This document shows, one piece after another, positions 8,844-60,126 of a DNA stretch of 64,000 nt (position 1 is the first letter of the stretch; the number at the start of each line of letters is the position of its first letter). The stretch spans positions 21,365-85,364 of the forward strand of contig JBEEMW010000070.1 in assembly GCA_041192445.1 (NCBI GenBank), in the 5' to 3' direction. The DNA comes from Pseudomonadota bacterium (GTDB lineage: Bacteria; Pseudomonadota; Gammaproteobacteria; Burkholderiales; Burkholderiaceae_C). The position numbers and the translations under genes are program-made. Below the pieces are notes generated by a model. That model worked only from the letters and a program-made list of their open reading frames with translations. It did not search any database and was not told the origin of the DNA.

Positions 8844-9179
8844 ATGAACGACACTTTGAAGAAAAAAGACTGGTCAGCCCTTGCCAGACGTGCGTTGACA
8901 GCTACTGAAATCATAGCGAATCTGGCTAAACTGGAAGGCTGGACGCTCACTGGAGACGGGGCGTCCATCGCCATTGAAAAGACCTATCCGTTCAAAAATT
9001 ACTATCAGACGATGGCGTTCGTCAATGCCGTTGCCTTCATCGCGCATGTTCAGGACCACCATCCGGATTTGTCGGTGCATTACAGCCGCTGTGTCGTGCG
9101 TTTCAACACACATGACGTCGGCGGCATTTCGGTGACCGACTTTGAATGCGCCACCCAGATTGACGCGCTAATCACATGA
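8844..9179 (+). CDS. phhB: Pterin-4a-carbinolamine dehydratase
   Basis: 111 aa, with the LEGWTL...IEKTYPFKNYYQTMAFVNAVAFIAHVQDHHPDL...THDVGGIS pattern typical of the PCD/DCoH family. Confidence 0.85.
   Translation: MNDTLKKKDWSALARRALTATEIIANLAKLEGWTLTGDGASIAIEKTYPFKNYYQTMAFVNAVAFIAHVQDHHPDLSVHYSRCVVRFNTHDVGGISVTDFECATQIDALIT
8864..8921 (-). repeat. 55-bp repeat copy (forward on the minus strand) inside the phhB N-terminal coding region
   Basis: cagcccttgccagacgtgcgttgacagctactgaaatcatagcgaat matches the 30973-31028 copy at 32/47 and the reverse complement of the 21084-21137 copy at 33/47 (ungapped, hand-counted). It uses unusual AT-rich or rare codons (aga, aca, act, ata). Confidence 0.55.
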
Positions 9180-10108
9180 GCGAGGTCCGGGCCACCCTCG
9201 AAAAGGGATTGATCGTGGCCAACTATGGCCGCCATTTTCTGGTCGAAACGCCAGAAGGCCGGCGTCTGATCTGCCACCCGCGTGGCAAGAAAAGCCAAGT
9301 GGTCGTGGGTGACCGCGTGTTGTGGCAGGCCAGCCAGGACGAAGGCACGATCGAAAAAATTGAAGACCGGCGCAACCTTTTCTACCGGCAAGACGAGATT
9401 CGCACCAAGTCGTTTGCGGCTAACCTGGATCAGGTTTTGATACTGGTCGCGGCCGAGCCCGAGTTCTCAAGCAGCCAGCTGTCGCGTGCCCTCATCGCCG
9501 CTGAGGCGGAGCACATTACCCCCATCATTGCACTCAACAAGAGTGATCTGGTAGACCCCTTTGCCCGCGCCTGGGAATGGCTGTTGCCCTACCGTCACAT
9601 GCACTATGGCGTGTTGCCACTGTCTTTAAAGCAATCGGGTGAAGTGGACCGTGCCGAACTGCTCAAACACCTGAAAGGCAAAACGACCCTGGTTCTGGGG
9701 CCGTCGGGGGCGGGGAAAAGCACACTGATCAACCTGTTGGCACCCGGCTCATTGGCCCAGACCGGCGAGATTTCACAGGCTCTGAACTCCGGCAAACACA
9801 CAACGACCAGTACCACCTGGTATTGGGTCGACACTGAGAGAACCACAGCCCTGATTGACTCTCCGGGGTTCCAGGAATTTGGCCTCAACCATATCGATCC
9901 GGCGCAACTGGCCGCTTACATGCCCGACATAAAACCCCATGTGGCCAACTGCAAGTTTTACAACTGCACGCACCTGCACGAACCAGGCTGCGGCGTGATG
10001 GCTGCCGTCAATTCAACAGAATCGGGCCCCAGCCCTGATGGAATAAGCGCAAACCGCTACAAAATTTATAGCGAACTGTTTGCTGAGCTGAAACAGTCAA
10101 AATATTGA
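9176..10108 (+). CDS. rsgA: Ribosome small-subunit-dependent GTPase A
   Basis: LNKSDL, GPSGAGKSTLINLL, and the zinc-knuckle CKFYNCTHLHEPGCGV. The ATG overlaps the phhB stop (ATGA). Confidence 0.92.
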   Translation: MSEVRATLEKGLIVANYGRHFLVETPEGRRLICHPRGKKSQVVVGDRVLWQASQDEGTIEKIEDRRNLFYRQDEIRTKSFAANLDQVLILVAAEPEFSSSQLSRALIAAEAEHITPIIALNKSDLVDPFARAWEWLLPYRHMHYGVLPLSLKQSGEVDRAELLKHLKGKTTLVLGPSGAGKSTLINLLAPGSLAQTGEISQALNSGKHTTTSTTWYWVDTERTTALIDSPGFQEFGLNHIDPAQLAAYMPDIKPHVANCKFYNCTHLHEPGCGVMAAVNSTESGPSPDGISANRYKIYSELFAELKQSKY

Positions 10109-10131
10109 CGACTCATGCCATCCAGTGGCAT

Positions 10132-11100: not shown

Positions 11101-11128
11101 ATAACGATCATAGCGGCCAGATGCGTGA

Positions 11129-11830: not shown

Positions 11831-11844
11831 GGGAACAAGACCAA

Positions 11845-11880
11845 TAAAAAAGCCGCCTCACGCAAACGCTGGGCGGCTTT
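11845..11880 (-). terminator. Intrinsic terminator after rplS (structurally bidirectional)
   Basis: AAAAAAGCCGCC...GGCGGCTTTT: a 7-bp GC stem flanked by an A-run and a T-run, 31 nt after the rplS stop. Confidence 0.75.
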
Positions 11881-11910
11881 TAGAAAGGCAAACTCGCCTA
11901 TACGATCATC

Positions 11911-14711: not shown

Positions 14712-15158
14712 ATGAAAAACAAAACTGCCGCTGCATGGCTCGCATTTGTAGGCGGCCCTCTGGGTCTGCACCGGTTTTATTTGGCGGGGTTTGGTGATCT
14801 GTTGGGATGGTTATTGCCAATTCCCACGGCTCTGGGCTTGTATGGCGTTCAGCGGATGCAAAGTCTTGGCGTCGATGACGAATGGGCCTGGATTTTGATT
14901 CCCCTGCTGGGATTCACCATCGCAGGCTGCGCCCTCACCGCAATCGTCTACGGATTGATGACCCCGGAAAAGTGGAACGCCAAGTTCAACATTCACGCCT
15001 CGCCGGACGCGCCTGCCGGAGAAACCCACTGGTTAACGATAGGGGCAGTGGTGTTCGCACTGCTTGTTGGATCGACCGTTTTGATGTCGTCCATCGTGTT
15101 CAGTTTTCAACGCTATTTTGAGCACCAAATTGAGGAAGCGCGCAAGATTTCTCAATGA
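14712..15158 (+). CDS. TM2 domain-containing membrane protein
   Basis: AAWLAFVGGPLGLHRFYLAGFGD is a TM2-domain signature, and further TM segments follow. The ATG abuts the upstream stop. Confidence 0.7.
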   Translation: MKNKTAAAWLAFVGGPLGLHRFYLAGFGDLLGWLLPIPTALGLYGVQRMQSLGVDDEWAWILIPLLGFTIAGCALTAIVYGLMTPEKWNAKFNIHASPDAPAGETHWLTIGAVVFALLVGSTVLMSSIVFSFQRYFEHQIEEARKISQ

Positions 15159-15213
15159 AAAAGGCCTTTAGCCCCCGTCAATATTGCGCGGGTAGCTACT
15201 ATTTCGATAGCAT
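15158..15213 (-). repeat. 55-bp dispersed repeat filling the spacer between the convergent TM2 and PiT genes
   Basis: The reverse complement is gatgctatcgaaatagtagctacccgcgcaatattgacgggggctaaaggcc. It has strong similarity to the 49315-49372 copy, including both the ATGCTA...TAGCT and ACGGGGGCTAA.GGCC modules. Confidence 0.85.
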
Positions 15214-16223
15214 CAAAATAATTGCAAACTGACCCAGTAGGCGATGGCTGCGACAAAGGCGCTGGCGGGAATGGTGAATATCCATGCCCAAACAATGGTG
15301 CCCGCCACACCCCAGCGAACGGCACTGGCACGCTGGGTGGCCCCGACACCCACGATGGCACCCGTGATGGTATGCGTCGTGGAAACAGGAATACCCAGAA
15401 TGGCGGCCGTGAAGAGCGTAATCGCACCGCCCGTCTCAGCACAAAACCCATGCACCGGCTTGAGCTTGGTGAGCCGCTGCCCCATCGTCTTGACGATGCG
15501 CCATCCGCCAAACAAAGTCCCCATGGCGATGGCCGTGTAGCAACTGAGTACAACCCAGGTCGGTGGTGAGCTCTCGCCAACTGCGGTGTAACCCGTAGCA
15601 ATCAGCAGCATCCAGACAATACCGATTGTTTTTTGGGCGTCATTGCCGCCGTGGCCCAGGCTGTAAGCACCGGCAGACACCAACTGCAAGCGCCGAAACC
15701 AGCGGTCCACGCGACTTGGGGTGCTTCGGCGAAAGGTCCATGAGACGGCGATCAACATGAGCGACCCCAGCAAAAATCCCATCAATGGCGAGACAAAGAT
15801 GAACAGCACGGTCTTCATGACGCTTGCAAAGACGAGCGCCGAGGCCCCGGCCTTGGATATGACGGCACCAACAATGCCACCGATCAGCGCATGCGAAGAG
15901 CTGCTGGGGATGCCGTAATACCAGGTGATGAAATTCCAGCTGATCGCACCGACCAGCGCACCGAAAACCACATGCACGTCAACCACACCGGGCTGGGCAA
16001 GGCCCTTGCCGATGGTGGCCGCCACGCTCAAATGGAAAATGAAAATCGCAATAAAATTGAAGAACGCGGCAAAAACCACGGCCTGTCCTGGCTTTAGAAC
16101 TCCGGTGGAGACAACCGTGGCAATCGAGTTGGCTGCGTCATGAAATCCATTCATGAAATCGAATACCAGTGCCAGTGCCACCAGCAAAATGACGACCCAC
16201 AACCCCACCTGAACCGACGACAT
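15213..16223 (-). CDS. Inorganic phosphate transporter, PiT family
   Basis: FDFMNGFHDAANSIATVVST and GGNDAQKTIG (duplicated PiT signatures), polytopic. Confidence 0.9.
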   Translation of the reverse strand: MSSVQVGLWVVILLVALALVFDFMNGFHDAANSIATVVSTGVLKPGQAVVFAAFFNFIAIFIFHLSVAATIGKGLAQPGVVDVHVVFGALVGAISWNFITWYYGIPSSSSHALIGGIVGAVISKAGASALVFASVMKTVLFIFVSPLMGFLLGSLMLIAVSWTFRRSTPSRVDRWFRRLQLVSAGAYSLGHGGNDAQKTIGIVWMLLIATGYTAVGESSPPTWVVLSCYTAIAMGTLFGGWRIVKTMGQRLTKLKPVHGFCAETGGAITLFTAAILGIPVSTTHTITGAIVGVGATQRASAVRWGVAGTIVWAWIFTIPASAFVAAIAYWVSLQLF

Positions 16224-17102: not shown

Positions 17103-19712
17103 TTAAACCGTTGCGCTGTCCTTCACAGAAGCAGCAGCGTCCGTGTAATCCTGCACTTTGTCGAAATTCAGATACTGATAAATCTTGTCGCTCGCAGCGG
17201 TCAGCACGCCCATGTCGGCCAGATACTCGGTTTTCGTTGGAATCCGGCCCAACTTGGAGCAAATTGCGGCCAGCTCGGCGCTGCCCAGGTACACGAAGCT
17301 GTTTTTGCCCAGCCGATTCGGGAAATTGCGGGTGGAAGTTGAGAACACGGTAGCGCCCTCTTTCACCTGAGCCTGGTTGCCCATGCACAGACTGCAGCCT
17401 GGCATTTCCATACGCGCACCGGCAGCGCCCAGAACACCATAATGCCCCTCTTCGGTCAGCTGCTTGGCGTCCATCTTGGTCGGCGGGGCCATCCAGAGCT
17501 TGACCGGAATGTCGCGCTTGTTTTCCAGCAGCTTGGAGGCCGCGCGGAAGTGGCCGATGTTGGTCATGCAACTGCCGATGAACACCTCGTCAATCTTGGC
17601 ACCGGCCACGTCAGACAGTGTTTTGACATCGTCGGGGTCATTCGGGCAGGCAACAATAGGCTCGTGAATGTCGGCAAGGTCAATCTCGATGATGGCCGCG
17701 TACTCCGCATCTGCATCGCCCTTGAGCAATTGCGGGTCAGCCAGCCAGGCTTCCATCGCCTTGATGCGGCGATTGATGGTGCGCACGTCAGAGTAGCCCG
17801 TCGCAATCATCCACTTCAGCATGGTGATGTTGCTGGTGATGTACTCTTGAATAGGTTCTTTGTTCAGATGAACCGTGCAGCCACCCGCGCTGCGCTCGGC
17901 GGACGCGTCGCTCAACTCGAACGCCTGCTCGACCTTCAAATCTGGCAAACCTTCGATTTCCAGAATACGGCCCGAGAAAATGTTCTTCTTGCCCTGCTTG
18001 GCCACGGTCAACAATCCAGCCTTGATGGCGTACAGCGGAATGGCGTTAACCAGATCGCGCAGCGTCACGCCGGGCTGCAAGCTGCCTTTGAAGCGAACCA
18101 GTACGGATTCAGGCATGTCCAGAGGCATCACTCCCGTGGCAGCACCAAACGCCACCAGACCGGAACCGGCGGGGAAGCTGATGCCGATGGGGAAACGCGT
18201 GTGGCTGTCACCGCCAGTGCCAACCGTATCGGGCAGCAACATGCGGTTCAGCCAGGAGTGGATGATGCCGTCACCGGGACGCAGCGGCACGCCGCCACGG
18301 GTGCTGATGAAGTCAGGCAGCTCGTGGTGCATCTTCACGTCCACGGGCTTGGGATAAGCGGCGGTGTGGCAGAAGGATTGCATCACCAGATCGGCGCTGA
18401 AACCCAGGCAGGCCAGGTCTTTCAGCTCGTCGCGGGTCATCGGGCCAGTGGTGTCTTGCGAACCCACGGATGTCATCTTGGGCTCGCAATAGGTACCGGG
18501 GCGCACGCCCTGCTGGTTGCCCTTGACGACCGGCAGACCACAGGCGTGGCCCACCATTTTTTGCGCCAGCGTGAAACCTTTGTGGGTATCAGCCGGATTG
18601 TGCGGCAGGCGGAACAGCGTGCTGACCGGCAGACCCAGCGCCTCACGCGCCTTGGCGGTCAGGCCACGGCCGATGATCAGCGGGATACGGCCACCGGCAC
18701 GCACTTCGTCAAACAGCACATCGCTCTTGACCTTGAACTCGGCAATCACTTTGCCATCCTTCAATGCTTTGCCGTCATAGGGGCGCAATTCCACCACGTC
18801 GCCCATGTTCATGGCACTCACATCCAGCTCGATGGGCAGCGCGCCGGAGTCCTCCATGGTGTTGTAAAAAATCGGGGCAATTTTGCTACCCAGACACACT
18901 CCCCCAAAACGCTTGTTCGGCACGAACGGGATGTCTTCACCAGTGAACCACAGCACCGAGTTGGTGGCGGATTTGCGCGAGGAGCCGGTGCCGACGACGT
19001 CACCGACATAGGCCACCAGATTGCCCTTGGCTTTGAGCTCATCAAAGAACTTGACCGGGCCGCGTTTGCCGTCTTCTTCCGGAACGATGCCGGGGCGTGC
19101 GTTTTTGTGCATGGCCAGGGCGTGCATCGGAATGTCGGGGCGGCTGAAGGCGTCGGGCGCGGGTGACAAATCATCGGTATTGATTTCACCGTCAACTTTG
19201 AAAACAGTGAGTGTGATCGACGCGGGCACTTCAGGACGGGAGGTAAACCACTCGGCATCGGCCCAGCTCTGCAACACGGCTTTGGCCTGGGCATTGCCTT
19301 TGTCGGCCTTGTCCTTGACATCATGGAATTGATCGAACATCAACAGGGTTTTCTTCAGACCACTGGCTGCGGCTTGTGACACGGCTGCGTCGTCCAGCAA
19401 ATCAACCAGCGGGCTGATGTTGTAGCCGCCCAGCATGGTACCCAGCAACTCGGTGGCTTTTTCGCGGGAAATCAGCGTGCATTTCTCGGTGCCATGGGCC
19501 ACGGCAGCCAGATAGGATGCCTTGACCTTGGCAGCATCGTCCACGCCTGCAGGCACGCGGTGCGTGATCAGGTCTACCAAGGTGGCTTCTTCACCTGGGG
19601 GCGGGTTCTTCAACAACTCAATGAGTTCACCCGTCTGTTTGGCAGACAGGGGCAGCGGTGGAATGCCGAGGACGGCGCGTTCAGCGACGTGGGCGCGGTA
19701 GGCTTGCAACAT
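17103..19712 (-). CDS. acnB: Aconitate hydratase B (bifunctional aconitase 2 / 2-methylisocitrate dehydratase)
   Basis: 869 aa starting [26 protein letters not shown] (AcnB HEAT-like N-terminus), with the C-terminal aconitase catalytic motifs GSCMTN and CSLCMGNQA. Confidence 0.95.
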
Positions 19713-19734: not shown

Positions 19735-19790
19735 AAATATGGTTCCAGCCCTCGTCAACAGGGCGTGAATAGCTATTTATTTAATAGCAC
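19735..19790 (-). repeat. 55-bp dispersed repeat in the acnB upstream spacer, overlapping the 3' end of the upstream gene
   Basis: The reverse complement ggtgctattaaataaatagctattcacgccctgttgacgagggctggaaccatattt matches the 49315 copy at 38/57 ungapped positions. The TAA stop at 19777-19779 lies inside it. Confidence 0.8.
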
Positions 19791-20271
19791 CTTCAACAGG
19801 TGCTGCGGGTTTGGCATCCAGCACACTGGCCGGTGGCGCCTTCAGCATGGCTTGGGCAACTTGTTCTTGCGACGGGCTCATGCACCCATCGTTCAGACGC
19901 TGGCCCAGCTTTTGATTCATCAACATCGATTTATTCGCCAGTTGCAGCCAGACCACGCCTGCTGCCTTGTCCTCCAGGCGAATCGCTCCGGTGGTAGTTT
20001 GTTCGGGCGACACCCGGTAATTCACGTTGCGAGCCCGCAAATTGAAAAAACCCGGCGCGCCGGGATCGGCCTGCAAAACCACCACACCGCCGTGTTCACA
20101 GGGCAAATTGCCCACGTGGACGCGTTGCGCAATTTCCAGTTCGGCAGGCGTCAAAACGGCCTTGATGTCCACCCGGCCGGCTTTAGACTGCGCCGCCACA
20201 CCGCCATACACAAGCGTGAGCAGGACCAAGGCGAACAGGCGAAAAAGAGGGGTTGAAGCGGGTGTGGTCAT
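19777..20271 (-). CDS. Hypothetical secreted protein (N-terminal signal peptide)
   Basis: MTTPASTPLFRLFALVLLTLVYGGVAAQ signal-like N-terminus. I recognise no family. The last four codons (GAIK) and the stop come from the repeat. Confidence 0.55.
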   Translation of the reverse strand: MTTPASTPLFRLFALVLLTLVYGGVAAQSKAGRVDIKAVLTPAELEIAQRVHVGNLPCEHGGVVVLQADPGAPGFFNLRARNVNYRVSPEQTTTGAIRLEDKAAGVVWLQLANKSMLMNQKLGQRLNDGCMSPSQEQVAQAMLKAPPASVLDAKPAAPVEGAIK

Positions 20272-20305: not shown

Positions 20306-21346
20306 TCAGTGGCCAGGGACATCAAAATAGGCCCTGACCCCGGATGGCAATGCCCTGCCCGTATGATGCGCCCGCTCCAGCGTCTGCCAAAAATAGCGAT
20401 AGCTGGCCCGGTCATGCAGGCGCCCCCCAAAGCTGATGGGAGCCCATGCCACACCTTCGGCTTTCAGAATAATTTCTGAAGCCATTTCAATGTCAAGCTC
20501 GTCCGGCATGAACGCCGCAATAATCGGGCGGATCTGGTCAGGGTGAATGCTCCACATGCGCTGATAACCCATTTCTCGCGCCGCCTGTCGGGCCGCGGCA
20601 CGCAATACTGCCGTGTCCTTGAACTCGGTCACCACGCAATGCGACGGCACCTTGCCATGCGCATGGCAAGCCGATGCGATCTCCAGCTTGGCCCGCACCA
20701 CCAGCGGATGGCTGAACTGCCCCGCGCCCGACATACCCTCAGCGGGAATGGCCCCGGCATGTGCAGACACAAAATCCATGAGTCCAAAACTGATGGACTG
20801 CACACGCGGATGGGCTGCAATATCAAACGCCCGGTGCACGGCAGCGGGTGATTCGATCAGCACGTGTAGCGGCAATTGGCTGCCCGCAGGGCCCGGCCAT
20901 GCGCGATCAACAGCCTTGACCGCACGATCCACATCTGCGACGGACTCAACCTTGGGAATCATCAGGTGGCACAGCGCTGCACCAGCTTTGCCAACAACGG
21001 TGGCCACATCCTGCTCAAACAACGGATGGTCCACCGGGTGAACCCGCACAGCCACCCGGGCTGCTGCAGAATTCTTGACATTTGCTATGTTTTTTGTAGC
21101 TAATCGTGCATGATTGGCGAGGGCTGCAACCATATTGGCATGGTCAAGCTCACCCCCAACCGGTGCACCATCCTCACAATCCAGCGTGACATCAAAGACA
21201 CACACACCGAACTCTTCGGTCATCTCGGCCTGCAATGCCAAGCTCTTGCGCATCCGCGCCTCAACACCACTGTAATGGTCACACACCGGCAAGAAACCGG
21301 CGGATGCCTGGGCACCCATCAGTGCGTCGCGTGGATGCATGACCAT
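20306..21346 (-). CDS. HpcH/HpaI aldolase / citrate lyase beta-subunit (CitE)-like protein
   Basis: FDVTLDCEDGAP and LIESPAAV...ISFGLMDF resemble the CitE / malyl-CoA lyase-like fold; this is a family-level call only. The start is trimmed to the ATG at 21346, downstream of the mdh stop. Confidence 0.6.
   Translation of the reverse strand: MVMHPRDALMGAQASAGFLPVCDHYSGVEARMRKSLALQAEMTEEFGVCVFDVTLDCEDGAPVGGELDHANMVAALANHARLATKNIANVKNSAAARVAVRVHPVDHPLFEQDVATVVGKAGAALCHLMIPKVESVADVDRAVKAVDRAWPGPAGSQLPLHVLIESPAAVHRAFDIAAHPRVQSISFGLMDFVSAHAGAIPAEGMSGAGQFSHPLVVRAKLEIASACHAHGKVPSHCVVTEFKDTAVLRAAARQAAREMGYQRMWSIHPDQIRPIIAAFMPDELDIEMASEIILKAEGVAWAPISFGGRLHDRASYRYFWQTLERAHHTGRALPSGVRAYFDVPGH
21084..21137 (+). 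repeat. 55-bp repeat copy inside the CitE-like gene (antisense to the coding strand)
   Basis: ttgctatgttttttgtagctaatcgtgcatgattggcgagggctgcaaccatattg matches the reverse complement of the 30973-31028 copy at 39/56, and the first 10 nt are identical. It is translated as VAALANHARLATKNIANV. Confidence 0.7.
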
Positions 21347-21357
21347 TAACTTGCCGC

Positions 21358-22344
21358 TCAAAGCAGGTGGGCAACTCCGGCCTGCTCGTCCTGCAATTCC
21401 TTGAGCGTCTTGTTGATGCATTCCTGGCTGAACGCATCCACCGTCAGGCCTTCAACCGGTTTGTACTCGCCACCTTCGCAGGTCACGGCAAAACCAAACA
21501 TCACATCTTTCGGGATGCCGTATTGGCCGTCGGACGGGATGCCCATGGTGACCCACTTGCCATTCGTGCCCAGCGCCCAGTCGCGCATGTGGTCGATGGC
21601 CGCATTGGCAGCCGATGCGGCAGATGACACCCCACGCGCTTCAATGATGGCCGCACCACGCTTGCCCACGGTCGGCAGGAAGGTGTTGGCGTTCCAGTCA
21701 TGGTCGTTGATCATGTCCTTGACGCCGGCACCATTGATGGTGGCAAAACGGTAGTCGGGGTACATGGTTGGGGAGTGATTGCCCCACACCACCAGTTTTT
21801 CGATATCCGCAACTGCCTTGCCAGTCTTGCTGGCCAATTGGCTCAGGGCGCGATTGTGATCCAGGCGCAGCATGGCGGTGAAATTTTTGCGCGGCAGATC
21901 GGGCGCGCTCTTCATCGCGATGTAGGCGTTGGTGTTGGCGGGATTGCCTACGACCAGCACCTTGACGTTGCGGCTTGCAACGGCGTTGAGCGCCTTGCCT
22001 TGAGCCGTAAAGATCTGGGCGTTCACAGCCAGCAACTCGGCACGCTCCATGCCGGGGCCACGAGGGCGTGAACCGATCAGCAAGGCGTAATCCACGTCCT
22101 TGAACGCGGTCATCGGGTCGCCATGGGCTTCCATGCCCACGAGCAACGGGAAGGCACAGTCCTGCAATTCCATCATCACGCCCTTGAGCGCTTTTTGAGG
22201 CCCTTCAACGGGCACTTCAAGCAATTGCAATATCACAGGCTGGTCTTTGCCAAGCATTTCGCCTGAGGCAATGCGAAAAAGAATGGCGTAACCAATTTGG
22301 CCTGCTGCACCAGTAACGGCAACGCGGACGGGCTTTTTGCTCAT
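21358..22344 (-). CDS. mdh: Malate dehydrogenase
   Basis: [32 protein letters not shown]...[10 protein letters not shown]. The start is trimmed to the ATG at 22344. Confidence 0.95.
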
Positions 22345-30972: not shown

Positions 30973-31028
30973 AAATTGGCTTACAGCCCCCGTGAAACGG
31001 GCGTTAGTAGCTATAAATAACATAGCAA
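30973..31028 (-). repeat. 55-bp dispersed repeat filling the leuD-leuB spacer
   Basis: The reverse complement ttgctatgttatttatagctactaacgcccgtttcacgggggctgtaagccaattt matches the 49315 copy at 38/56 ungapped positions. Confidence 0.85.
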
Positions 31029-37118: not shown

Positions 37119-37834
37119 ACACGACGCCTTTAAAAGCCCAACGCACCCGAATCAAGATTTGCGGATTGACCCGTGAACAGGACGTGGATGCGGCTGTGGC
37201 CGCCGGGGCGGATGCGGTCGGTTTTGTGCTCTATGACAAAAGCCCGCGCTACGTCCCCATCGAGCGGGCGGCTGAACTGGCCCGCCGACTGCCACCTTTC
37301 GTCACCCCCGTGTTGCTGTTCGTTAACGAGACTGCTATTAAAATAATAGCTGCTTGTGCACATATTCCGGGGGCTACAACCCAATTTCATGGTGATGAAA
37401 CACCTGAACAGTGCCAGGAGGCCACCCTGCAAGGCACCCGCGCCTACCTGCGTGCGGCGCGCATTCCGCTGGGGGATGGCGCTGCCAGCTTTGACCTCGT
37501 AAAATACGCACAAGATTACTCAAACGCCCAGGCCATATTGCTCGACGCACATGTTGAGGGTTATGGCGGCGGCGGCAAGGTTTTTAATTGGTCACTTCTT
37601 CCTCCAAGCGTCAACGTTCACCTCGTCTTGAGTGGTGGGCTGAGTGCTGCAAACGTGGCCGACGGCATTTTGCAGGTGCGGCCGCGTTGTAAAACGCTGG
37701 CCGTAGATGTCAGTTCCGGTGTCGAATCCTCCAAGGGGATCAAGGACATCGACAAAATCAACCGCTTCGTCGCTGCCGTTCGCGCAGCCGACAGGCAATT
37801 CGAAAACCTTGCGGGACAGACCAAGACGCCATGA
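37115..37834 (+). CDS. trpF: Phosphoribosylanthranilate isomerase
   Basis: RIKICGLTREQDVDAAVAAGADAVGFVLYDKSPRYV...QFHGDE...YGGGGKVFNWSLL...LSGGL...AVDVSSGVE. The ATG overlaps the truA stop (ATGA). Confidence 0.93.
   Translation: MNTTPLKAQRTRIKICGLTREQDVDAAVAAGADAVGFVLYDKSPRYVPIERAAELARRLPPFVTPVLLFVNETAIKIIAACAHIPGATTQFHGDETPEQCQEATLQGTRAYLRAARIPLGDGAASFDLVKYAQDYSNAQAILLDAHVEGYGGGGKVFNWSLLPPSVNVHLVLSGGLSAANVADGILQVRPRCKTLAVDVSSGVESSKGIKDIDKINRFVAAVRAADRQFENLAGQTKTP
37334..37387 (+). repeat. 55-bp repeat copy in frame inside trpF
   Basis: gctattaaaataatagctgcttgtgcacatattccgggggctacaacccaattt matches the era-proximal copy at 38/54 ungapped, and the 49315 copy at about 74% with small gaps. It contains a perfect 7-bp inverted repeat, GCTATTA-aaa-TAATAGC, and rare codons (ata ata tgt). 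Confidence 0.8.
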
Positions 37835-49314: not shown

Positions 49315-49372
49315 ATGCTACAAAATAAATAGCTGCTCACGCATATTCTACGGGGGCTAAGGGCCAATTTTC
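49315..49372 (+). repeat. 55-bp dispersed repeat (my reference copy) occupying the acpS-nagZ junction
   Basis: atgctacaaaataaatagctgctcacgcatattctacgggggctaagggccaatttt. The acpS stop (49357-49359) and its last 4-5 codons lie inside it, and it ends 5 nt from the nagZ ATG. Confidence 0.85.
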
Positions 49373-49770
49373 TCTACGACGCAGAAGCTGGCAGCGTAAT
49401 CGGTCTCATCGGTCACACTCACGTGGGCGGTGAGGCCCCGGGCTTCGAACCAGTCTTTCAGGCCCCCATGCAGCACGATGCAGGGCTTGCCGGCGTTGGG
49501 GTGGTCTTGCGGCAGTTTGGCGATTTCACACAGGCGCCAGGTCATCGGCATACGCATGCCCAGGCCGATGGCTTTGCTGAACGCCTCCTTGGCACTGAAG
49601 CGGGTGGCCAGGTAGCGCACCCCGCGCTCCGGCCAGCGTGCGCTTCGGGCTTTCCAGGTGGTGAACTCGGCATCACTTAGCACTTTTTGTGCAAAACGGT
49701 CGCCATGGCGCTCCAGGCTGGCGCGGATTCGGCGAACGTCGCAGATGTCGGTGCCGATGCCGTAAATCAT
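49357..49770 (-). CDS. acpS: Holo-[acyl-carrier-protein] synthase
   Basis: [15 protein letters not shown]...[11 protein letters not shown]. The start is trimmed to the ATG at 49770. Confidence 0.9.
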
Positions 49771-49783
49771 GAAGCAATCCCAC

Positions 49784-50542
49784 TCACCTGCCGGCCTCTT
49801 CAATGCAGCGCAGATAGCTGTGGATGGTGTTGGTGTAGCCCATTTCCAGGGCATCCGCGATCAGGGCGTGCCCGATCGACACCTCGCGTACATCCGGCAC
49901 CTGCTTCAGGAAGGTGGTGAGGTTGTCCCGGTTCAGGTCGTGGCCCGCGTTCACGCCCAGGCCCGCCTCCAGCGCAGCCTGGGCCGCCTGCGCAAAACGC
50001 GCCAGCTGGTCCGCCTGTTGCGCGCCGCCCCAGGCCGCCGCATAGGGCTCGGTGTACAGCTCAACCCGGTCCGCACCCACCGCCCTGGCGGCGGCCATGG
50101 CCCGGGGGTCTGCGTCCATGAACAGGCTGACACGCACGCCCAGGCTTCGGGCCTCGGCAATCAGGGGGGCCAGTCGAACGGCGTCCTGGGGTAAATCCCA
50201 GCCATGGTCGCTGGTGAATTGCCCCTCCGAGTCAGGTACAAAGGTGCATTGATGGGGACGCACCTGGCGCACAAAATCCATCAAATTCTGGAACGGATTG
50301 CCTTCGATGTTGAATTCACGGTCAGGCCAGGCCTTCATCAAGGCCGCCAAATCATGCACATCGGTCGACCGGATATGGCGCTCATCAGGGCGGGGGTGCA
50401 CCGTGATGCCGTGGGCCCCGGCCTGCAGGCACAGGGTAGCGGCGCGGGTGACGCCGGGAATACCCAGATGCCGCGTGTTGCGTACCAGCGCGACCTTGTT
50501 GAGATTGACAGACAAGGCGGTTTGAAAAAACGTGGGGGTCAT
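49784..50542 (-). CDS. pdxJ: Pyridoxine 5'-phosphate synthase
   Basis: [15 protein letters not shown]...[12 protein letters not shown]...NIEGNP...VSLFMDAD...VELYTEPYA...NAGHDL. Confidence 0.95.
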
Positions 50543-51424: not shown

Positions 51425-52456
51425 TCATTCGTACCCGAATGAGCGAACCCGGGCTTCATCATCCGCCCAACCCGAGCGCACCTTGACCCACATCTCGATG
51501 AACACTTTCGCGTCCAGGAGTTTCTCAAGCTCAACCCGCGTCTCGGTACCAATACGTTTGATGCGTTCGCCCTTGTCACCAATCACCATGGCTTTATGGG
51601 TGTCGCGCTCCACCACGATGGTGGCGGCGATCTTCAGCAGGCGCTTTTGTTTGCCACGTCCGGCCTCTTCCTCGAACTTGTCGATCACCACGGTGGAGGT
51701 GTAGGGCAGCTCGTCGCCTGTCAGGCGAAAGAGTTTTTCGCGCACCGTCTCGCTGGCCAGAAATTTCTCGCTGCGGTCGGTGAGTTCGTCTTCGGCATAA
51801 CGCCAAGCTTGTTCGGGCAGGTATTTTTCGCAAATGCCCAGCAATCGTTCGATATCTTTGGCGTTCTTGGCCGACATCGGCACAAACTCGTTAAAGGCGT
51901 GGCGCTGGTGCATCTCTTGCAACCACGGTGCGATGTCGGCCCGGCGGTTGACCTGGTCAAGCTTGTTGGCCACCAACAGGGTGGGAATGTCTTTGCCCAA
52001 CAGCGCCAGAACCTTGGCATCGGCCTGGTTGAACATGCCTGCTTCGACCACAAACAAAATCAGGTCCACGTCGCCGACAGCACCTTTCACGGTTTTATTC
52101 AAGGCGCGGTTCAAGGCGTTGTTGTGACGGGTCTGAAAGCCTGGTGTGTCGACGAACACAAATTGTGTCGCCCCCAGCGTGTGCATGCCGGTGATGCGGT
52201 GGCGCGTGGTTTGGGCCTTGCGTGAGGTGATGCTGATCTTTTGGCCCACCAGCGCGTTGAGCAAAGTCGATTTGCCAACGTTGGGTTTACCCACGATGGC
52301 AATCAGGCCACAGCGCTGCCCTTCCACGGGCACGCCCGCAGGTGCAGCAACACGCGACTCCCTGAGCAGGCCCTTGAGCATGCCTTCAAGGTCATTTTGG
52401 CCTTCAGCCCCCGTAGCGTCTGCATCAGCAGCTATGGTTTTAGTAGCGTTCATCAT
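51425..52456 (-). CDS. era: GTPase Era (start codon uncertain; the N-terminal ~25 codons are repeat-derived)
   Basis: [21 protein letters not shown] (G1), DTPG, NKLD, and a KH domain at the C-terminus. The alternative ATG at 52381 would give a more canonical length. Confidence 0.9.
52394..52449 (-). repeat. 55-bp dispersed repeat at the rnc-era junction
   Basis: The reverse complement acgctactaaaaccatagctgctgatgcagacgctacgggggctgaaggccaaaat matches the 49315 copy at 42/56 ungapped positions. Confidence 0.88.
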
Positions 52457-54509: not shown

Positions 54510-56320
54510 CAGCCGTCCACCTGCAAAATGGCCAAAAAGGCTTCTTGGGGAACCTCAACCGAACCAATCTGCTTCATGCGTTTCTTGCCTTCTTTTTGTT
54601 TGTCCAGGAGCTTGCGTTTGCGTGAAATATCACCGCCATAACACTTGGCGATCACGTTCTTGCGCAGCGCCTTGATTGTCTCACGGGCAATGATATTGGC
54701 CCCGATGGCAGCCTGGATGGCCACGTCATACATCTGGCGCGAAATGACCTCGCGCATTTTGGCGACCACAGCTCGCCCACGGAACTGCGATTGCGACCGG
54801 TGCACGATGATCGACAGCGCATCCACCTTGTCACCATTGAGAAGGATGTCGACCTTCACCACGTCGGCAGTACGGTACTCCTTGAACTCGTAATCCATAG
54901 ACGCGTAGCCGCGTGACACCGACTTGAGCTTGTCAAAGAAGTCCAGCACGATTTCGGCCAGCGGAATTTCGTAGGTGAGCATCACCTGGCGACCGTGGTA
55001 CGCCATGTTCATCTGCACGCCACGTTTCTGGTTGGCCAGCGTCATGACCGAGCCCACATACTCCTGCGGCATATAGAGGTGCACCGTGACGATGGGCTCG
55101 CGAATCTCGTCCAGTCGCCCCTGATCGGGCATCTTGGACGGGTTCTCGACCATCTTCACCTCACCGTCAACCCCCACCACCTGATACACCACACTGGGTG
55201 CGGTGGTGATGAGGTCCTGGTCAAATTCGCGCTCCAGGCGCTCCTGCACGATCTCCATGTGCAGCAGCCCCAGAAAACCGCAGCGAAAACCAAATCCCAG
55301 CGCCTGACTCACTTCAGGTTCGTAGTGCAGCGAGGAGTCGTTGAGCTTGAGTTTTTCCAGGCTGTCACGCAAGCCCTCATATTGATTGGCTTCCGTTGGA
55401 TACAAGCCGGCAAACACCTGAGGCTGGATTTCCTTGAAGCCGGGCAACGCTTCAGTGGCAGTGAAGGCTGCGCCGCCGGTACCGGGCTTGATCAGGGTGA
55501 TGGTGTCGCCCACCTTGGCCGCCTGCAATTCGCGGATACCCGCAATGATGTAACCCACCTCACCCGCTTCGAGAGACTGCCGCGCCTCATTGGCAGGTGT
55601 GAACACACCCAGCGAATCGGCGTTGTACATCGCGCCTGACGCCATCATTTTGAACCGCTCGCCTTTGCCCAGACGGCCGTCAACCACACGCACCAGCATG
55701 ACAACACCGACATAGGTGTCAAACCAGCTGTCAACAATCATGGCCCGCAACGGGCCATCGGGGTTACCTTTGGGCGGAGGAATCCGGGCGACGACGGCTT
55801 CGAGAATGTCGTCCACACCCATGCCCGTTTTGGCCGAGCACGGAATCGCGTTCGTCGCGTCGATCCCGATGACATCTTCAATTTCGGATTTCGCGTTCTC
55901 TGGATCTGCATTTGGCAAATCCATCTTGTTGAGCACCGGTACCACTTCCACACCCAACTCAAGGGCGGTGTAGCAATTGGCAACGGTCTGCGCTTCAACA
56001 CCCTGACTTGCATCGACAACCAGCAACGCGCCTTCGCATGCAGACAGCGAGCGGGACACTTCGTAAGAGAAGTCAACGTGTCCAGGTGTGTCGATCAAAT
56101 TGAGGTTGTAAACCTGCCCGTCAAGCGCTTTGTATTTGAGTGCAGCGGTCTGCGCCTTGATGGTTATCCCACGCTCTTTCTCGATGTCCATCGAGTCCAG
56201 AACCTGCGCCTCCATCTCACGATCGGCGAGCCCGCCGCATCGCTGGATCAATCGATCTGCCAATGTTGATTTGCCGTGATCAATGTGCGCAATGATCGAA
56301 AAATTTCTGATGTGATTCAT
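54509..56320 (-). CDS. lepA: Translation elongation factor 4
   Basis: [20 protein letters not shown]...DTPGHVDF...NKMDL, plus the LepA C-terminal domain. ATG at 56320. Its stop overlaps the lepB ATG by 1 nt. Confidence 0.97.
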
Positions 56321-56811: not shown

Positions 56812-56825
56812 ACAGACGCGTCCGA

Positions 56826-58310: not shown

Positions 58311-58392
58311 CGACCTTTCAATTTAAAAAATTCACTCGGAACTGACGCAACGCAACAGAGCCATGTCACGCTGACACATCACGGATACAACG

Positions 58393-59475
58393 CTAATTGG
58401 GGGGTGTTTTTTTGCGCTCAAGCCCTTGCGCAAAAGCAGTCAGCGTCTGGGCTGGCGCCTCGCCCACCACAGTCACCCACCAGTCACCGACACGCCGGGC
58501 AAAAGTCTGTGTTGCGCCCAGGGTCATGAGACCCTCCTGAAGGTGCCGGTGCGAGTCAAATACCTCAACAAACAGGGAGATTGATGCCAATCCATCAGAA
58601 AAAACCCACTGCATCGTGTTCTTTGGGGTGCTGCCTTCTGACGCCACAGCCGGCCGTTTGTAGCAGCTCATGGCCTTGAATCCGGCCACCGGATTCTTGA
58701 GTACCCAGCCCTGCGCGACCGCAGTCGTCTTCACCAGCTCAGGTTTTTCAACCTTGTAACCATCGGTGTTGCCCATCATCTGGCTGAGCTTGCTCATGCT
58801 GACCGGCGCATCAAGCTGCAGCTCTGAAAAAGCAGACTGCTCGAGCACACGTCCTTCGGTGTCAAGCGTCTGCAGCTTCACCACCAGGCCGCTCTTTTTT
58901 TCGGTCCAGACACGGTAGCCATAGCGAAGTTTGTCTTTGGGCTGCAGCTCAACCACATCCGCATCAAAACCCGCCACACGATCCTGCCCTGAGGGTTGGG
59001 CAGCATAAAACTGGGCAATCGACGAGTCAGTGGATTTCAGCAAGTCAGGAAAAAGCCCCAGCGATTCACGCTGTTCCGCTACCGCCTGCTTGCTGCCCGG
59101 CAAAAACGTGATGACCTGGTCATCGTGCCGGAAGGTTGAGCGTGGCGCACCACTGAGCGATTCCACGCGCTCCATCTGATGCTCACCATCACACACATGC
59201 CAGATCTTCGCACTGGACATGTTGCTGCCGGACGAAACGACAAAGATGCCGATATACGCACGGCGACGGGATGCTTCGTGCATGCGCATCAACCAGTCCG
59301 TCACACCCCGGCCGGCTTGTTGGGCTTCATTTTGGGCGACTACACCAGGGGCACCCCCTGCAACGGGTGCAGGGGTTTGTGCAACCACACAAGAAGCGCC
59401 AGCCAGAGCCACCAGAGACAGCATCACACAACCCCAGCCGCGTGCCCGAGCTTTGACTATTTTCAGAAACTGCAT
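58393..59475 (-). CDS. rseB: Sigma-E regulatory protein RseB/MucB
   Basis: Signal peptide, WLMRMHEASRRRAYIGIFVV...; position after rseA. Confidence 0.85.
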   Translation of the reverse strand: MQFLKIVKARARGWGCVMLSLVALAGASCVVAQTPAPVAGGAPGVVAQNEAQQAGRGVTDWLMRMHEASRRRAYIGIFVVSSGSNMSSAKIWHVCDGEHQMERVESLSGAPRSTFRHDDQVITFLPGSKQAVAEQRESLGLFPDLLKSTDSSIAQFYAAQPSGQDRVAGFDADVVELQPKDKLRYGYRVWTEKKSGLVVKLQTLDTEGRVLEQSAFSELQLDAPVSMSKLSQMMGNTDGYKVEKPELVKTTAVAQGWVLKNPVAGFKAMSCYKRPAVASEGSTPKNTMQWVFSDGLASISLFVEVFDSHRHLQEGLMTLGATQTFARRVGDWWVTVVGEAPAQTLTAFAQGLERKKTPPN

Positions 59476-59496
59476 GACGGGCCTGATCCAGCCGCG

Positions 59497-60126
59497 CTAG
59501 CGGTTGGGCACCTCAAACGTGGCATTGCGTAAAAACCCCGCCGGCATCTGCAAGGCCGACGTGCCGCCAAACTGCTTGTGCGCCGCCAGCAACTCGTCCA
59601 GGCGCGGGTCACGAATCATGACCGGCGGCTGCCCTGCCACCACGGCGACAGACTCGGTGGCCATCCCTGCCCCCGCGAGAGTCGTACCGGGCGAAACGGT
59701 GCCGGGGCCATTCACAACACCCCAGCCCAGCACCGCCACGGCTGTGACTGACGCCAGTCCGGCCACCAGCTGCCATCGAAAGCGGGAGGCATTGGCACCC
59801 TCTTGTTTGATGCCATTCAGGTCATTAACCCTCGTATTCATTGCGCTAACAGCTATTAATACAGGAGCATCTACCGTTTGCAGGGGGATGGCCTCGCGTT
59901 GCAGGCGTTGCTGCAGACGTGCCACAAAATCCAGATCACCGGCGCTGCCCAAGGCATCCCCGGATCGGAGTACGTCGCCGACCACGTGGTAGGCGTGCCA
60001 AGTGGCCCGGGCATCGACATCCATACTGACTGTTTCAGCCACTACGGCGAATTCATTCCCGCGCAACTGCCCATCGGCCAGGGCCGACACCATTTCGCGG
60101 ATTTTCAAAGTGTCTTGCATCATCAT
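59497..60126 (-). CDS. rseA: Anti-sigma-E factor RseA/MucA-like
   Basis: REMVSALADGQLRGNEF...ARATWHAYHVVGDVLRS (RseA N-terminal domain), with a single TM segment WQLVAGLASVTAVAVLGW. Confidence 0.85.
   Translation of the reverse strand: MMMQDTLKIREMVSALADGQLRGNEFAVVAETVSMDVDARATWHAYHVVGDVLRSGDALGSAGDLDFVARLQQRLQREAIPLQTVDAPVLIAVSAMNTRVNDLNGIKQEGANASRFRWQLVAGLASVTAVAVLGWGVVNGPGTVSPGTTLAGAGMATESVAVVAGQPPVMIRDPRLDELLAAHKQFGGTSALQMPAGFLRNATFEVPNR
59815..59870 (-). repeat. 55-bp repeat copy in frame inside rseA (cytoplasmic linker just before the TM segment)
   Basis: The reverse complement atgctcctgtattaatagctgttagcgcaatgaatacgagggttaatgacctgaat matches the 49315 copy at 35/56 ungapped positions. 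It is translated as DAPVLIAVSAMNTRVNDLN. Confidence 0.7.

What the first reader, a model, noticed from the sequence alone, without database searches (positions are those of the whole stretch)
8864..59870. Each orientation of the repeat has one recurrent open reading frame
Copies on the coding strand in the forward orientation are all read in the same frame:
- trpF: TAIKIIAACAHIPGATTQF
- era N-terminus: [19 protein letters not shown]
- uvrD tail: GAINSGADYAGYSGAKGQF
- rseA: DAPVLIAVSAMNTRVNDLN
- The 19777 ORF ends GAIK-stop in the same frame.

Copies read in the reverse orientation also share a frame:
- CitE-like: AALANHARLATKNIANV
- phhB: SALARRALTATEIIANL
- The leuB-upstream copy is open as [16 protein letters not shown].

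This resembles the in-frame palindromic elements described in Rickettsia (RPEs), where only frame-compatible insertions persist in genes. I am not aware of this being described for Burkholderiales.
Basis: partly seen in the sequence, partly recalled or inferred. Interest (0 to 1): 0.75.

Follow-up and report, generated by a model that had tools for sequence, protein, structure and literature searches.

The report
Dispersed DNA motif written into genes
A conserved 55-base DNA motif is scattered through this Rhodoferax-like genome and its relatives, and where it lies inside genes it has overwritten existing codons rather than been inserted, which explains why it is nearly always read in the same two frames.

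Summary
The window has 11 copies of a ~55-nt motif (GCTA-N9-TAGCT-N6-GC-N8-C-N2-GGGCT...TTT), against 0 expected by chance. Seven copies are read through by real genes.

In 120 Comamonadaceae loci, 39 of 41 intragenic copies use F2 or R2. F1 and R1 are almost unused, although 26% and 43% of intergenic copies are stop-free in them.

The RPE-like interpretation fails on its defining feature, because the genic copies are not insertions. TrpF, MutL and LolD are colinear with solved homologues. RseA matches a motif-free orthologue and Era differs by 0-5 residues. LeuRS, MurI and the CitE-like protein differ by 1-11 residues, never the 18-22 a whole element would add.

Among 83 trpF orthologues of equal length, 46 carry the motif and 37 do not. 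Carriers fix rare codons (ATA 100%, GCT 100%), with GC3 of 0.26 inside the motif against 0.70 outside.

I found no covariation, target-site duplication, terminal inverted repeats or strand polarity. Related genomes carry the motif at every compared site or at none.

Best reading: a conserved double-stranded DNA motif of unknown function, superimposed on codons by substitution. F2 and R2 are the frames that turn its invariant blocks into Ala, Ile and Gly.

The parts
62..116 (-). Motif copy inside uvrD (window 2-2401, minus strand). It lies in the variable Gly/Ser/Ala linker before the conserved C-terminal domain and is read in forward frame F2 (AINSGADYAGYSGAKGQF).
   Evidence: Many Comamonadaceae UvrD proteins carry the same peptide in this linker, followed in frame by the conserved HGLR..VFH.KFGEG domain.
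8864..8918 (-). Motif copy at the 5' end of phhB (8844-9179, plus strand), read in reverse frame R2 (KDWSALARRALTATEIIA).
   Evidence: LTATEIIANLAKLEGW is colinear with PDB 2ebb LTEEEVQALLEKADGW, and the remainder lies in an N-terminal extension.
10019..10073 (-). Motif copy in the 3' end of rsgA (9176-10108, plus strand), read in reverse frame R1 (ESGPSPDGISANRYKIYS). This is the exception to the frame rule. It is also the weakest pattern match, missing even the one-mismatch scan.
   Evidence: It is absent from the pattern scan. PDB RsgA alignments that reach the C-terminus are about 10 residues shorter.
15158..15212 (-). Intergenic copy that exactly fills the 54-nt gap between two convergent genes: a TM2-domain ORF (14712-15158, plus) and a PiT-family transporter (15213-16223, minus).
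19735..19789 (-). Copy in the spacer between ORF 19777-20271 (minus) and the 869-aa ORF 17103-19712 (minus). The upstream ORF ends inside the motif in F2 (GAIK-stop).
21083..21137 (+). Copy inside the CitE/HpcH-like lyase gene (20306-21421, minus), between the DCEDG and VRVH motifs. It is read in R2 (NMVAALANHARLATKNIA).
   Evidence: Relative to PDB 3r4i and 3qqw, the first half aligns to the native helix and 11 residues are extra.
30973..31027 (-). Copy filling the leuD-leuB spacer. It is not translated, because leuB starts at the ATG just downstream.
   Evidence: The same spacer carries a copy in Rhodoferax MAG L121 (3850-3904) and Polaromonas L122 (about 3688-3742).
37333..37387 (+). Copy inside trpF (37115-37834, plus), read in F2 (AIKIIAACAHIPGATTQF). 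It overlays the native TIM-barrel segment FVNE...QFHGDE.
   Evidence: Ungapped alignment to PDB 1lbm. The segment is conserved across Comamonadaceae TrpF. Of 83 orthologues, 46 carry the motif and 37 do not, all at equal length. Rare codons are fixed in carriers.
49316..49370 (+). Copy in the acpS-nagZ junction. It overlaps the last four codons and the stop of acpS (49357-49854, minus) and ends 5 nt before the likely nagZ start codon.
   Evidence: The orthologous copy is present in L207 and absent in L208 and L209, whose spacers are only 49 and 25 nt.
52394..52448 (-). Copy inside the N-terminal extension of era (51425-52456, minus; the start codon overlaps the rnc stop). It is read in F2 ([18 protein letters not shown]).
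   Evidence: All 120 closest Era homologues have the extension. Forms with the motif peptide and forms without it have the same length, and some have a further 40-90 aa upstream.
59815..59869 (-). Copy inside rseA (59497-60126, minus), in the linker between the anti-sigma domain and the membrane helix. It is read in F2 (APVLIAVSAMNTRVNDLN).
   Evidence: An orthologous copy is in L207. The motif-free orthologue in L209 aligns without a gap across the region.

Best explanation
**What it is.** This is a conserved double-stranded DNA motif of about 55-65 bp. It has five invariant blocks (TGCTA, TAGCT, GC, C..GGGCT, TTT) separated by AT-rich variable stretches.

**Where it occurs.** It is present at roughly one copy per 6 kb in Rhodoferax, Polaromonas and related Comamonadaceae, and absent from some close relatives. 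Most copies sit just downstream of genes or in short spacers between genes of an operon, and they avoid divergent promoter regions. About a fifth to a quarter lie inside genes.

**Shown.**
- Genic copies are not inserted elements. The motif is superimposed on pre-existing codons by nucleotide substitution, with at most small loop-length changes.
- In lineages that have the motif, its bases are then held fixed even at synonymous sites and even when that forces rare codons.
- The recurrent frames follow from this. Frames F3 and R3 always contain stop codons (TAG from the TAGC block). Frames F1 and R1 give Cys/Tyr/Ser/Pro/Arg-rich peptides. Only F2 and R2 read the invariant GC-containing blocks as Ala, Ile and Gly: A-[IT]-x-x-[IV]-A-A-x-A...G-A-x-G-x-F in F2, and N-[RW]-P-L-A-[PL]-V-x-x-A-Q-A-A-I-x-x-I-A in R2. 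These are ordinary helix or linker sequence, so only protein segments already close to those patterns can host the motif.

**Inferred.** The motif is most likely a recognition site for a lineage-specific DNA-binding factor and is maintained by selection on the DNA. An uptake-sequence-like fixation bias is the main alternative for why it accumulates.
For: **Family reality and spread**
- establish the family in the window.

**Not insertions**
- TrpF, MutL and LolD align without gaps.
- LeuRS shows only one-residue gaps.
- RseA compared with a motif-free orthologue is ungapped, and Era with and without the motif is the same length.
- 83 trpF orthologues of equal length have PWM scores from -102 to +62. 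Of these, 46 score at least 15 and 37 score at most 2.

**DNA-level constraint**
- In 46 distinct motif-bearing trpF genes, GCT74 and ATA78 are 100% conserved, CAA90 87% and TTT91 89%.
- GC3 is 0.26 inside the motif and 0.70 outside. In the 35 distinct motif-free orthologues it is 0.79 inside and 0.76 outside.

**Frame rule**
- Internal copies: R2 22, F2 17, R1 1, F3 1, F1 0.
- Openness of intergenic copies: F1 .26, F2 .75, F3 0, R1 .43, R2 .49, R3 .01.
- The pattern-only subset gives 24 of 24 in F2 or R2.
- Genes that end at the motif show no frame preference.

**A DNA-level rather than an RNA-level feature**
- No covariation anywhere. At positions 6/14 the counts are T-A 81, C-A 49, T-G 41, C-G 14.
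- No Rfam match.
- Sense and antisense orientations are about equal: 5 and 5 in the window, and 18 and 23 among internal copies.

**Ancient and lineage-wide**
- Orthologous copies occur in the leuD-leuB spacer, trpF, rseA, era and the acpS-nagZ junction.
- L207 has the motif at all three compared sites. L208 and L209 have none in 21 kb each.

**Placement**
- Convergent gene pairs flank 13 copies and divergent pairs flank 1.
Against: - The function was not tested at all, and no binding protein is identified.
- Some genic copies coincide with small length increases: CitE-like +11 aa, MurI +5 aa, RsgA about +10 aa.
- The intergenic acpS-nagZ copy involves an indel, because the motif-free spacers of 25-49 nt are too short to host it. 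Insertion-type events are therefore not excluded for part of the family.
- The trpF score distribution is bimodal with few intermediates. On a poorly resolved NJ tree, motif-bearing and motif-free orthologues are interleaved. That pattern would also fit replacement of a whole patch rather than stepwise substitution.
- The gene calls in fetched loci come from a home-made dicodon model, not from annotation.
- Loci were ascertained through the conserved blocks, so conservation of those blocks is partly circular.
Confidence: 0.72

Rival explanations
1. RPE-like or MITE-like mobile element. A small palindromic element transposes into genes, and only copies inserted in a frame-compatible way survive, adding an element-encoded peptide to the host protein.
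For: - Frame regularity in both orientations.
- Partial length gains at the motif in the CitE-like protein (+11 aa), MurI (+5 aa) and RsgA.
- The intergenic acpS-nagZ copy is associated with a longer spacer.
- Copies occur in viral or proviral contigs.
Against: - No whole-element length gain in TrpF, MutL, LolD, LeuRS, RseA or Era.
- No target-site duplication or terminal inverted repeat.
- No stem covariation.
- No near-identical copies. The best pairs in the window are 71-77% identical.
- Copies are orthologous across genera.
- At 55-65 bp the motif is far shorter than the roughly 150 bp of RPEs (PMC10969869).
Confidence: 0.07
2. Uptake-sequence-like molecular drive. The motif is preferred by a DNA-uptake or recombination step, so variants closer to the motif are fixed genome-wide without benefit to the cell. 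Selection on proteins then confines genic copies to tolerant segments and frames, as for USS and DUS.
For: - Copies arise without insertion, show frame bias, and are located mostly in poorly conserved segments: the UvrD linker, the RseA linker, the Era extension and a variable TrpF helix. These are the properties reported for coding-region uptake sequences (PMC2817400).
- Both orientations occur.
- Related genomes carry the motif at every compared site or at none.
- The motif is conserved across genera.
- AT-rich stretches lie between conserved blocks.
Against: - The motif is about five times longer than any known uptake sequence.
- By my estimate and typical coding density, copies are about 25-fold enriched outside genes, far more than reported for USS and DUS, where 34-65% lie in ORFs (PMC2817400).
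- No paper in the searched library links Comamonadaceae with uptake sequences.
- Competence of these organisms was not assessed.
Confidence: 0.2
3. Length-preserving patch conversion. A templated process such as gene conversion from other copies overwrites partially similar sequences with a full motif in one step.
For: - The trpF score distribution is bimodal with few intermediates.
- Motif-bearing and motif-free orthologues differ throughout the 19-codon segment while the rest of the protein is 72-97% identical.
- They are interleaved on the tree.
- Genic copies score as well as intergenic ones, and their variable positions are equally AT-rich.
Against: - Variable positions in genic copies still encode the native residue pattern, for example MutL [14 protein letters not shown] against E. 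coli [14 protein letters not shown].
- Partial motifs with only the 5' half exist in trpF of Polaromonas and others.
- Native targets share too little identity with the motif for known homology-dependent conversion. This last point rests on my own knowledge of recombination requirements.
Confidence: 0.12
4. Chance or compositional artefact. The genic copies are native sequences that happen to resemble an intergenic repeat.
For: The three weakest window copies (8864, 10019, 59815) had first-round nhmmer E-values of only about 1e-4. Native motif-free trpF segments already score in the top 0.1% of background.
Against: - The pattern has 0.00 expected matches per window.
- Genic copies have the same median score as intergenic ones, 31.4 bits.
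- Rare codons are 100% conserved.
- Chance pattern matches in about 40% GC viral contigs score at most 26 bits, against 30-64 for real copies.
Confidence: 0.02

Closest known systems
Rickettsia palindromic elements (RPEs)
   Same: A dispersed repeat found inside many unrelated housekeeping genes. It is always read in a frame that keeps the host ORF open and contributes a recurrent peptide.
   Different: RPEs are about 150-bp insertions that add residues (PMC10969869). Here the genic copies add no residues, or only a few, and overlay native, structurally conserved segments. The motif is 55-65 bp, shows no stem covariation, and sits at orthologous positions across genera.
DNA uptake sequences (USS of Pasteurellaceae, DUS of Neisseriaceae)
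   Same: A genome-wide over-represented motif that occurs in both orientations. Inside genes it is embedded without insertion, with reading-frame bias, preferentially at poorly conserved positions (PMC2817400). It is shared by related genera and absent from others.
   Different: Known uptake sequences have a 9-12-bp core, whereas this motif spans about 55 bp with five blocks. It is much more strongly confined to intergenic DNA. No link to competence is known for Comamonadaceae, and uptake was not testable here.
REP/BIME-type extragenic palindromes (REPINs)
   Same: A short, abundant repeat placed downstream of genes and inside operons, avoiding promoters (13 convergent against 1 divergent).
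   Different: REPs are extragenic imperfect palindromes with compensatory stem variation. This statement rests on my own knowledge. Here about 23% of copies are intragenic, and the only symmetry is a fixed 4-bp GCTA/TAGC pair without covariation.

Membership tests
RPE / in-frame MITE insertion | The genic copy is an insertion that lengthens the host protein by the element-encoded peptide, relative to orthologues without it. | tested here: not met
   TrpF, MutL and LolD are ungapped against PDB homologues. LeuRS has only one-residue gaps. RseA and Era match motif-free orthologues in length. Only partial differences occur, of +5 to +11 aa.
RPE / in-frame MITE insertion | Genic copies share one open reading frame per orientation. 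| tested here: met
   39 of 41 internal copies use F2 or R2, and 24 of 24 in the pattern-only subset. There is one R1 exception in the window, rsgA.
RPE / in-frame MITE insertion | A palindromic element able to form a hairpin, with the stem maintained across copies. | tested here: not met
   Mutual information is at most 0.15 bit for all column pairs. Beyond the fixed GCTA/TAGC pair, the next would-be stem pair shows C-A 49 against C-G 14.
MITE (mobile) | Terminal inverted repeats and target-site duplications. | tested here: not met
   Flanking k-mer identity equals the shuffled-partner control for k of 3-8 over all plausible boundaries, and no terminal inverted repeat appears in the consensus.
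MITE (mobile) | Recent copies that are nearly identical within a genome. | tested here: not met
   The best pairs among the 11 window copies are 71-77% identical, and no subfamily signal appears in mutual information. Only 64 kb of one genome was examined.
DNA uptake sequence | Embedded in coding DNA by substitution, with frame bias, at orthologous positions in related species. | tested here: met
   Compare PMC2817400.
DNA uptake sequence | A short core of 9-12 bp at about one per kb, with roughly a third to two thirds of copies inside genes. | tested here: not met
   The motif spans about 55 bp, occurs at about one per 6 kb in the window, and has about 23% of copies internal to genes.
DNA uptake sequence | The host is naturally competent and takes up motif-bearing DNA preferentially. 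| not testable with these tools
   This needs uptake assays. No paper in the library pairs Comamonadaceae with uptake sequences.
REP/REPIN | Strictly extragenic location. | tested here: not met
   7 of 11 window copies and 41 of 177 copies in related loci lie inside coding sequence.
Structured RNA family (Rfam) | A match to a curated covariance model or a conserved secondary structure. | tested here: not met
   No Rfam match at any copy at E up to 1, and no covariation.

The most novel reading that the evidence does not exclude
Comamonadaceae such as Rhodoferax and Polaromonas carry a previously undescribed genome-wide signal of about 55 bp. A lineage-wide directional process writes it into intergenic and coding DNA alike by substitution. 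That process could be a third, unusually long family of uptake-type sequences, or the recognition array of an unknown chromosome-organising protein. It is strong enough to fix rare codons in essential genes such as trpF, mutL and lolD, and it is lost wholesale in sister lineages.
Probability: 0.35. Interest if true: 0.85.

Novelty: new variant of a known kind. Interest (0 to 1): 0.68.

Why it matters
If the reading is right, several hundred sites per genome carry a second layer of information on top of the genetic code. I extrapolate that number from 11 copies in 64 kb. Some of these sites lie in conserved enzymes.

The motif dictates codon choice, and to some extent residue choice, in proteins such as TrpF, MutL, LolD, Era, UvrD and RseA. 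It appears or disappears as a whole between related genomes.

This gives a clean comparative system of motif-bearing and motif-free sister genomes. Such a system could be used to find the factor that reads the motif. It could also measure what a DNA-level signal costs proteins.

There is a practical caution as well. Repeat copies found inside ORFs should not be assumed to be insertions or RPE-like events without checking colinearity with homologues.

Tried and rejected
- **Rfam scan of the whole window at E up to 1.** Nothing at any copy. The only hit is a weak AsrC match elsewhere.
- **Covariation and mutual-information analysis of 192 copies.** No paired columns, so an RNA or DNA hairpin family was rejected.
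- **Strand polarity relative to GC skew (KOPS- or Chi-like).** 54 against 77, not significant.
- **Target-site duplication and terminal inverted repeat search.** Negative.
- **Literature search for motif strings and for Comamonadaceae repeats or uptake sequences.** Nothing relevant.
- **Exact-protein look-ups of the window's TrpF and ACP.** These returned only near-identical strains. I used homologues from the protein searches instead.
- **A codon-usage-only gene caller.** It could not separate sense from antisense frames, so I replaced it with a dicodon model.
- **NJ tree of TrpF.** Too poorly resolved to count gains and losses.
- **Resemblances recalled from memory but not supported by conservation.** These were DnaA-box, parS-half-site and OxyR/LysR-type similarities in the variable stretch 29-37 and in CTAT-N7-ATAG. 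The relevant columns carry little information.


Full report
**1. What is there**

The window comes from a Rhodoferax-like member of the Comamonadaceae. Its TrpF has best named hits in Rhodoferax and Polaromonas MAGs.

Starting from the inverted-repeat pairs, an iterated nhmmer search found 11 copies of a ~55-nt element. Their cores are listed.

A pattern built only from invariant columns is GCTA-N9-TAGCT-N6-GC-N8-C-N2-GGGCT. It matches 8 copies exactly and 9 with one mismatch, against 0.00 expected in shuffles. A PWM built from intergenic copies of other genomes scores exactly these 11 positions above 10 bits, all above 20. The window background is -88 +/- 17.

**2.

All quoted peptides are present in the stated frames. 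NCBIfam and Pfam scans identify the genes.

| Copy | Gene or context | Frame |
|---|---|---|
| 62 | uvrD | F2 |
| 37333 | trpF | F2 |
| 52394 | era | F2 |
| 59815 | rseA | F2 |
| 21083 | CitE-like lyase | R2 |
| 8864 | phhB | R2 |
| 19735, 30973, 49316 | short same-strand (co-directional) spacers | not read through |
| 15158 | fills the 54-nt gap between two convergent genes | not read through |

The open frame across the leuB-upstream copy (30973) is not evidence of translation. The leuB profile match begins at [11 protein letters not shown], right after the ATG that follows the motif.

**3. The family beyond the window**

All are Comamonadaceae by title where the title names a lineage that precisely: Rhodoferax, Polaromonas, Acidovorax, Simplicispira, Giesbergeria and Aalborgicola.

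Across the window and 120 loci, nhmmer found 194 copies. The consensus is TGCTATtaATTTAATAGCTGCTTGCGCAcgTTccACGaGGGCTAGAGGCCtATTT. Conservation runs from about -2 to +64.

There is no covariation. The maximum mutual information is 0.15 bit. Next to the fixed GCTA/TAGC pair, columns 6/14 show T-A 81, C-A 49, T-G 41 and C-G 14. There is no Rfam match. The family therefore behaves as a sequence motif, not as a structured RNA or a hairpin element.

**4. Frame statistics**

I trained a dicodon model on long ORFs. It separates true frames well on the window's known genes.

With it, 41 of 177 assessable copies are internal to a gene, meaning the same coding frame on both flanks and an open frame throughout. 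Their frames are R2 22, F2 17, R1 1, F3 1 and F1 0. They fall in 32 host protein families.

Among the 136 non-internal copies, the stop-free fractions are F1 .26, F2 .75, F3 0, R1 .43, R2 .49 and R3 .01. Stop avoidance explains the absence of F3 and R3, but not the near absence of F1 and R1.

I then used only copies found by the frame-agnostic pattern outside the window. All 24 internal copies are in F2 (11) or R2 (13). My calculation from the openness values gives P of about 3e-5.

Genes that merely end at the motif use all frames evenly: F1 11, F2 17, F3 19, and R1 13, R2 20, R3 15. The frame rule is therefore real and specific to read-through copies.

**5. Genic copies are not insertions**

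- **TrpF.** The window segment FVNETAIKIIAACAHIPGATTQFHGDE aligns without a gap to T. maritima TrpF FVNEEPEKILDVASYVQLNAVQLHGEE. It is conserved, without indels, across Comamonadaceae TrpF.
- **MutL.** In locus L119, [21 protein letters not shown] aligns ungapped to E. coli [21 protein letters not shown].
- **LolD.** In L104, the motif region aligns ungapped to E. coli LolD.
- **LeuRS.** In L051 there are only two one-residue gaps.
- **MurI.** In L047 the protein is 5 residues longer in the loop.
- **RseA.** The window and L207 proteins (motif present) and the L209 protein (motif absent) align without gaps across the region.
- **Era.** All 120 closest homologues have an N-terminal extension. 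[21 protein letters not shown]... and the motif-less MTDTKHPAEQAHASAPEGQDD... are both 338 aa. Some relatives have 40-90 further residues upstream, so the motif is internal to the coding sequence.
- **UvrD.** The motif peptide lies in a length-variable Gly/Ser/Ala linker, followed in frame by a conserved C-terminal domain. It is translated, but insertion cannot be judged there.
- **Partial length differences.** The CitE-like protein is 11 residues longer than 3r4i and 3qqw, with the first half of the motif peptide aligned to the native helix. RsgA is about 10 residues longer, with the ISANRYKIYS half native-like by my own recollection of the family. In PhhB, LTATEIIANLAKLEGW is colinear with 2ebb, and the rest is N-terminal extension.

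No case shows the 18-22-residue gain that insertion of the whole element would produce.

**6. DNA-level constraint in trpF**

I compared 83 orthologues from metagenomes and genomes, all the same length in this segment. The PWM score ranges from -102 to +62 and is bimodal: 46 score at least 15 and 37 score at most 2.

| Measure | 46 distinct motif-bearing genes | 35 distinct motif-free orthologues |
|---|---|---|
| GC3 inside the motif | 0.26 | 0.79 |
| GC3 outside the motif | 0.70 | 0.76 |

In the motif-bearing genes, Ala74 is GCT in 100%, Ile78 is the rare ATA in 100%, Ala79 is GCT in 83%, Gln90 is CAA in 87% and Phe91 is TTT in 89%. ATA makes up 0.29% of training codons, against 2.4% for ATC.

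Native motif-free segments already score far above background, at about -16 to -50 against -88. The protein pattern (x-[VI]-x-A-A-C-x-x-[VI]-P-G-A-x-x-Q-F) was therefore pre-adapted to the motif.

An NJ tree shows basal clades without the motif. Inside the main clade, motif-bearing and motif-free sequences are interleaved, but the tree is weak.

**7. Age and distribution**

The leuD-leuB spacer copy and the trpF copy are present at the same places in a Rhodoferax MAG (L121) and a Polaromonas (L122).

L207 has the motif at all three orthologous sites: rseA, era and acpS-nagZ. L208 and L209 encode Era 87-90% identical to the window's, yet they have no copy in 21 kb each.

In the flanks of motif-bearing trpF loci there are 7 further copies in 182 kb. 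In the flanks of motif-free loci there are 0 in 108 kb. Presence is therefore a property of the genome, not of the site.

The intergenic acpS-nagZ copy does involve a length difference. The motif-free spacers are 25-49 nt, too short to hold the motif.

**8. Placement and orientation**

- Flanking genes are co-directional for 62 copies, convergent for 13 and divergent for 1. The motif avoids promoter regions.
- Stop codons of upstream genes usually lie within 30 nt of the core.
- Orientation relative to transcription is balanced, at 5 and 5 in the window and 18 F against 23 R among internal copies.
- Orientation relative to GC skew is not significantly biased, at 54 against 77.
- There are no target-site duplications or terminal inverted repeats.
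- There are no near-identical pairs. The best in the window are 71-77% identical.

**9. Why these two frames**

In F2 the invariant blocks read GCT (Ala), A[TC]N (Ile/Thr), [AG]TA (Ile/Val), GCT (Ala), GCN (Ala), GCA (Ala), NGG-GCT (Gly/Arg-Ala) and TTT (Phe).

In R2 they read GCC (Ala), GCG (Ala), GCA (Ala), GCT (Ala), ATT (Ile), ATA (Ile) and GCA (Ala). This follows directly from the consensus and the translations.

Both frames give Ala-rich helix or linker sequence, which is common in these proteomes. F3 and R3 hit the TAG of the TAGC block. F1 and R1 give Cys/Tyr/Ser/Pro/Arg-rich strings. The frame rule is thus a compatibility filter on where the motif can coexist with a protein.

**10. 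Interpretation**

*Shown:*
- The family is real, ancient and lineage-wide.
- Genic copies overlay native codons.
- Motif bases are constrained at synonymous sites.
- The frame bias exceeds stop avoidance.

*Inferred:* the motif acts on double-stranded DNA. The reasons are that it shows no structure and no orientation preference. It is either a recognition site kept by selection, which I favour, or the product of an uptake-type fixation bias.

The coding-region properties match those reported for uptake sequences: no insertion, frame bias, and a preference for poorly conserved positions (PMC2817400). The length, the block architecture and the strong intergenic enrichment do not match.

Patch conversion remains possible, given the bimodal trpF scores.

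The RPE analogy fails on its defining feature. RPEs are about 150 bp and insert in frame (PMC10969869).

**11. Limits**

- Only 64 kb of the source genome and fragments of others were available.
- Gene calls in fetched loci come from my own model.
- Loci were ascertained through the conserved blocks.
- No experiment bears on function.
- I found no description of this motif in the searchable literature. That is weak evidence of novelty.

Noticed in passing
Era homologues P0258, P0269, P0295, P0307, P0358 (relatives of window 51425-52456): Many Comamonadaceae Era proteins carry a 40-90-residue Lys/Ala/Pro-rich, histone-H1-like N-terminal extension upstream of the motif-encoded peptide. The window's Era has only the short form.
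   Followed up: partly
Viral-contig loci L210-L274: The motif pattern occurs in 65 IMG/VR stretches. About 52 are in 53-66% GC contigs with strong copies (PWM 30-64 bits), and several contigs have 2-3 copies. About 12 in roughly 40% GC contigs are weak chance matches. The motif is therefore also present in phage, prophage or misassigned host DNA of this lineage.
   Followed up: partly
L208 (GCA_029866205.1) and L209 (GCA_005795945.1), syntenic with window 41-63 kb: Close relatives (Era 87-90% identical) have no motif copy in 21 kb each, including the three sites that carry it in the window and in L207. L208 also lacks the rpoE-rseA-rseB block at this place.
   Followed up: partly
Window 37388-37399 and trpF orthologues: In motif-bearing trpF genes, the preference for AT-ending codons continues about 12 nt past the 55-nt core (CAT GGT GAT GAA; GC3 0.11-0.30 against 0.70 gene-wide). 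This suggests the constrained stretch is longer than the core.
   Followed up: partly
Window 56246-56320 (+): A weak Rfam match to AsrC (antisense RNA of rseC): 23 bits against a gathering score of 111, E = 0.006. Most likely chance.
   Followed up: no
Window 19777-20271 (-): A 164-aa ORF with a hydrophobic N-terminus and no Pfam or NCBIfam match. Its stop codon lies inside a motif copy.
   Followed up: no
L122 13844-20729: The Polaromonas locus has a tyrosine-integrase gene followed by about 7 kb of small unannotated ORFs downstream of accD. No motif copy was found in that stretch.
   Followed up: no
Window 2-450 (-) and UvrD homologues P0121-P0240: The linker between the UvrD helicase core and its small C-terminal domain is hypervariable in length (about 35-75 residues) and Gly/Ser/Ala-rich across Burkholderiales. 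Oxalobacteraceae-type and Roseateles-type proteins use an unrelated GSGYAREYQ..AW.RGSG linker.
   Followed up: no
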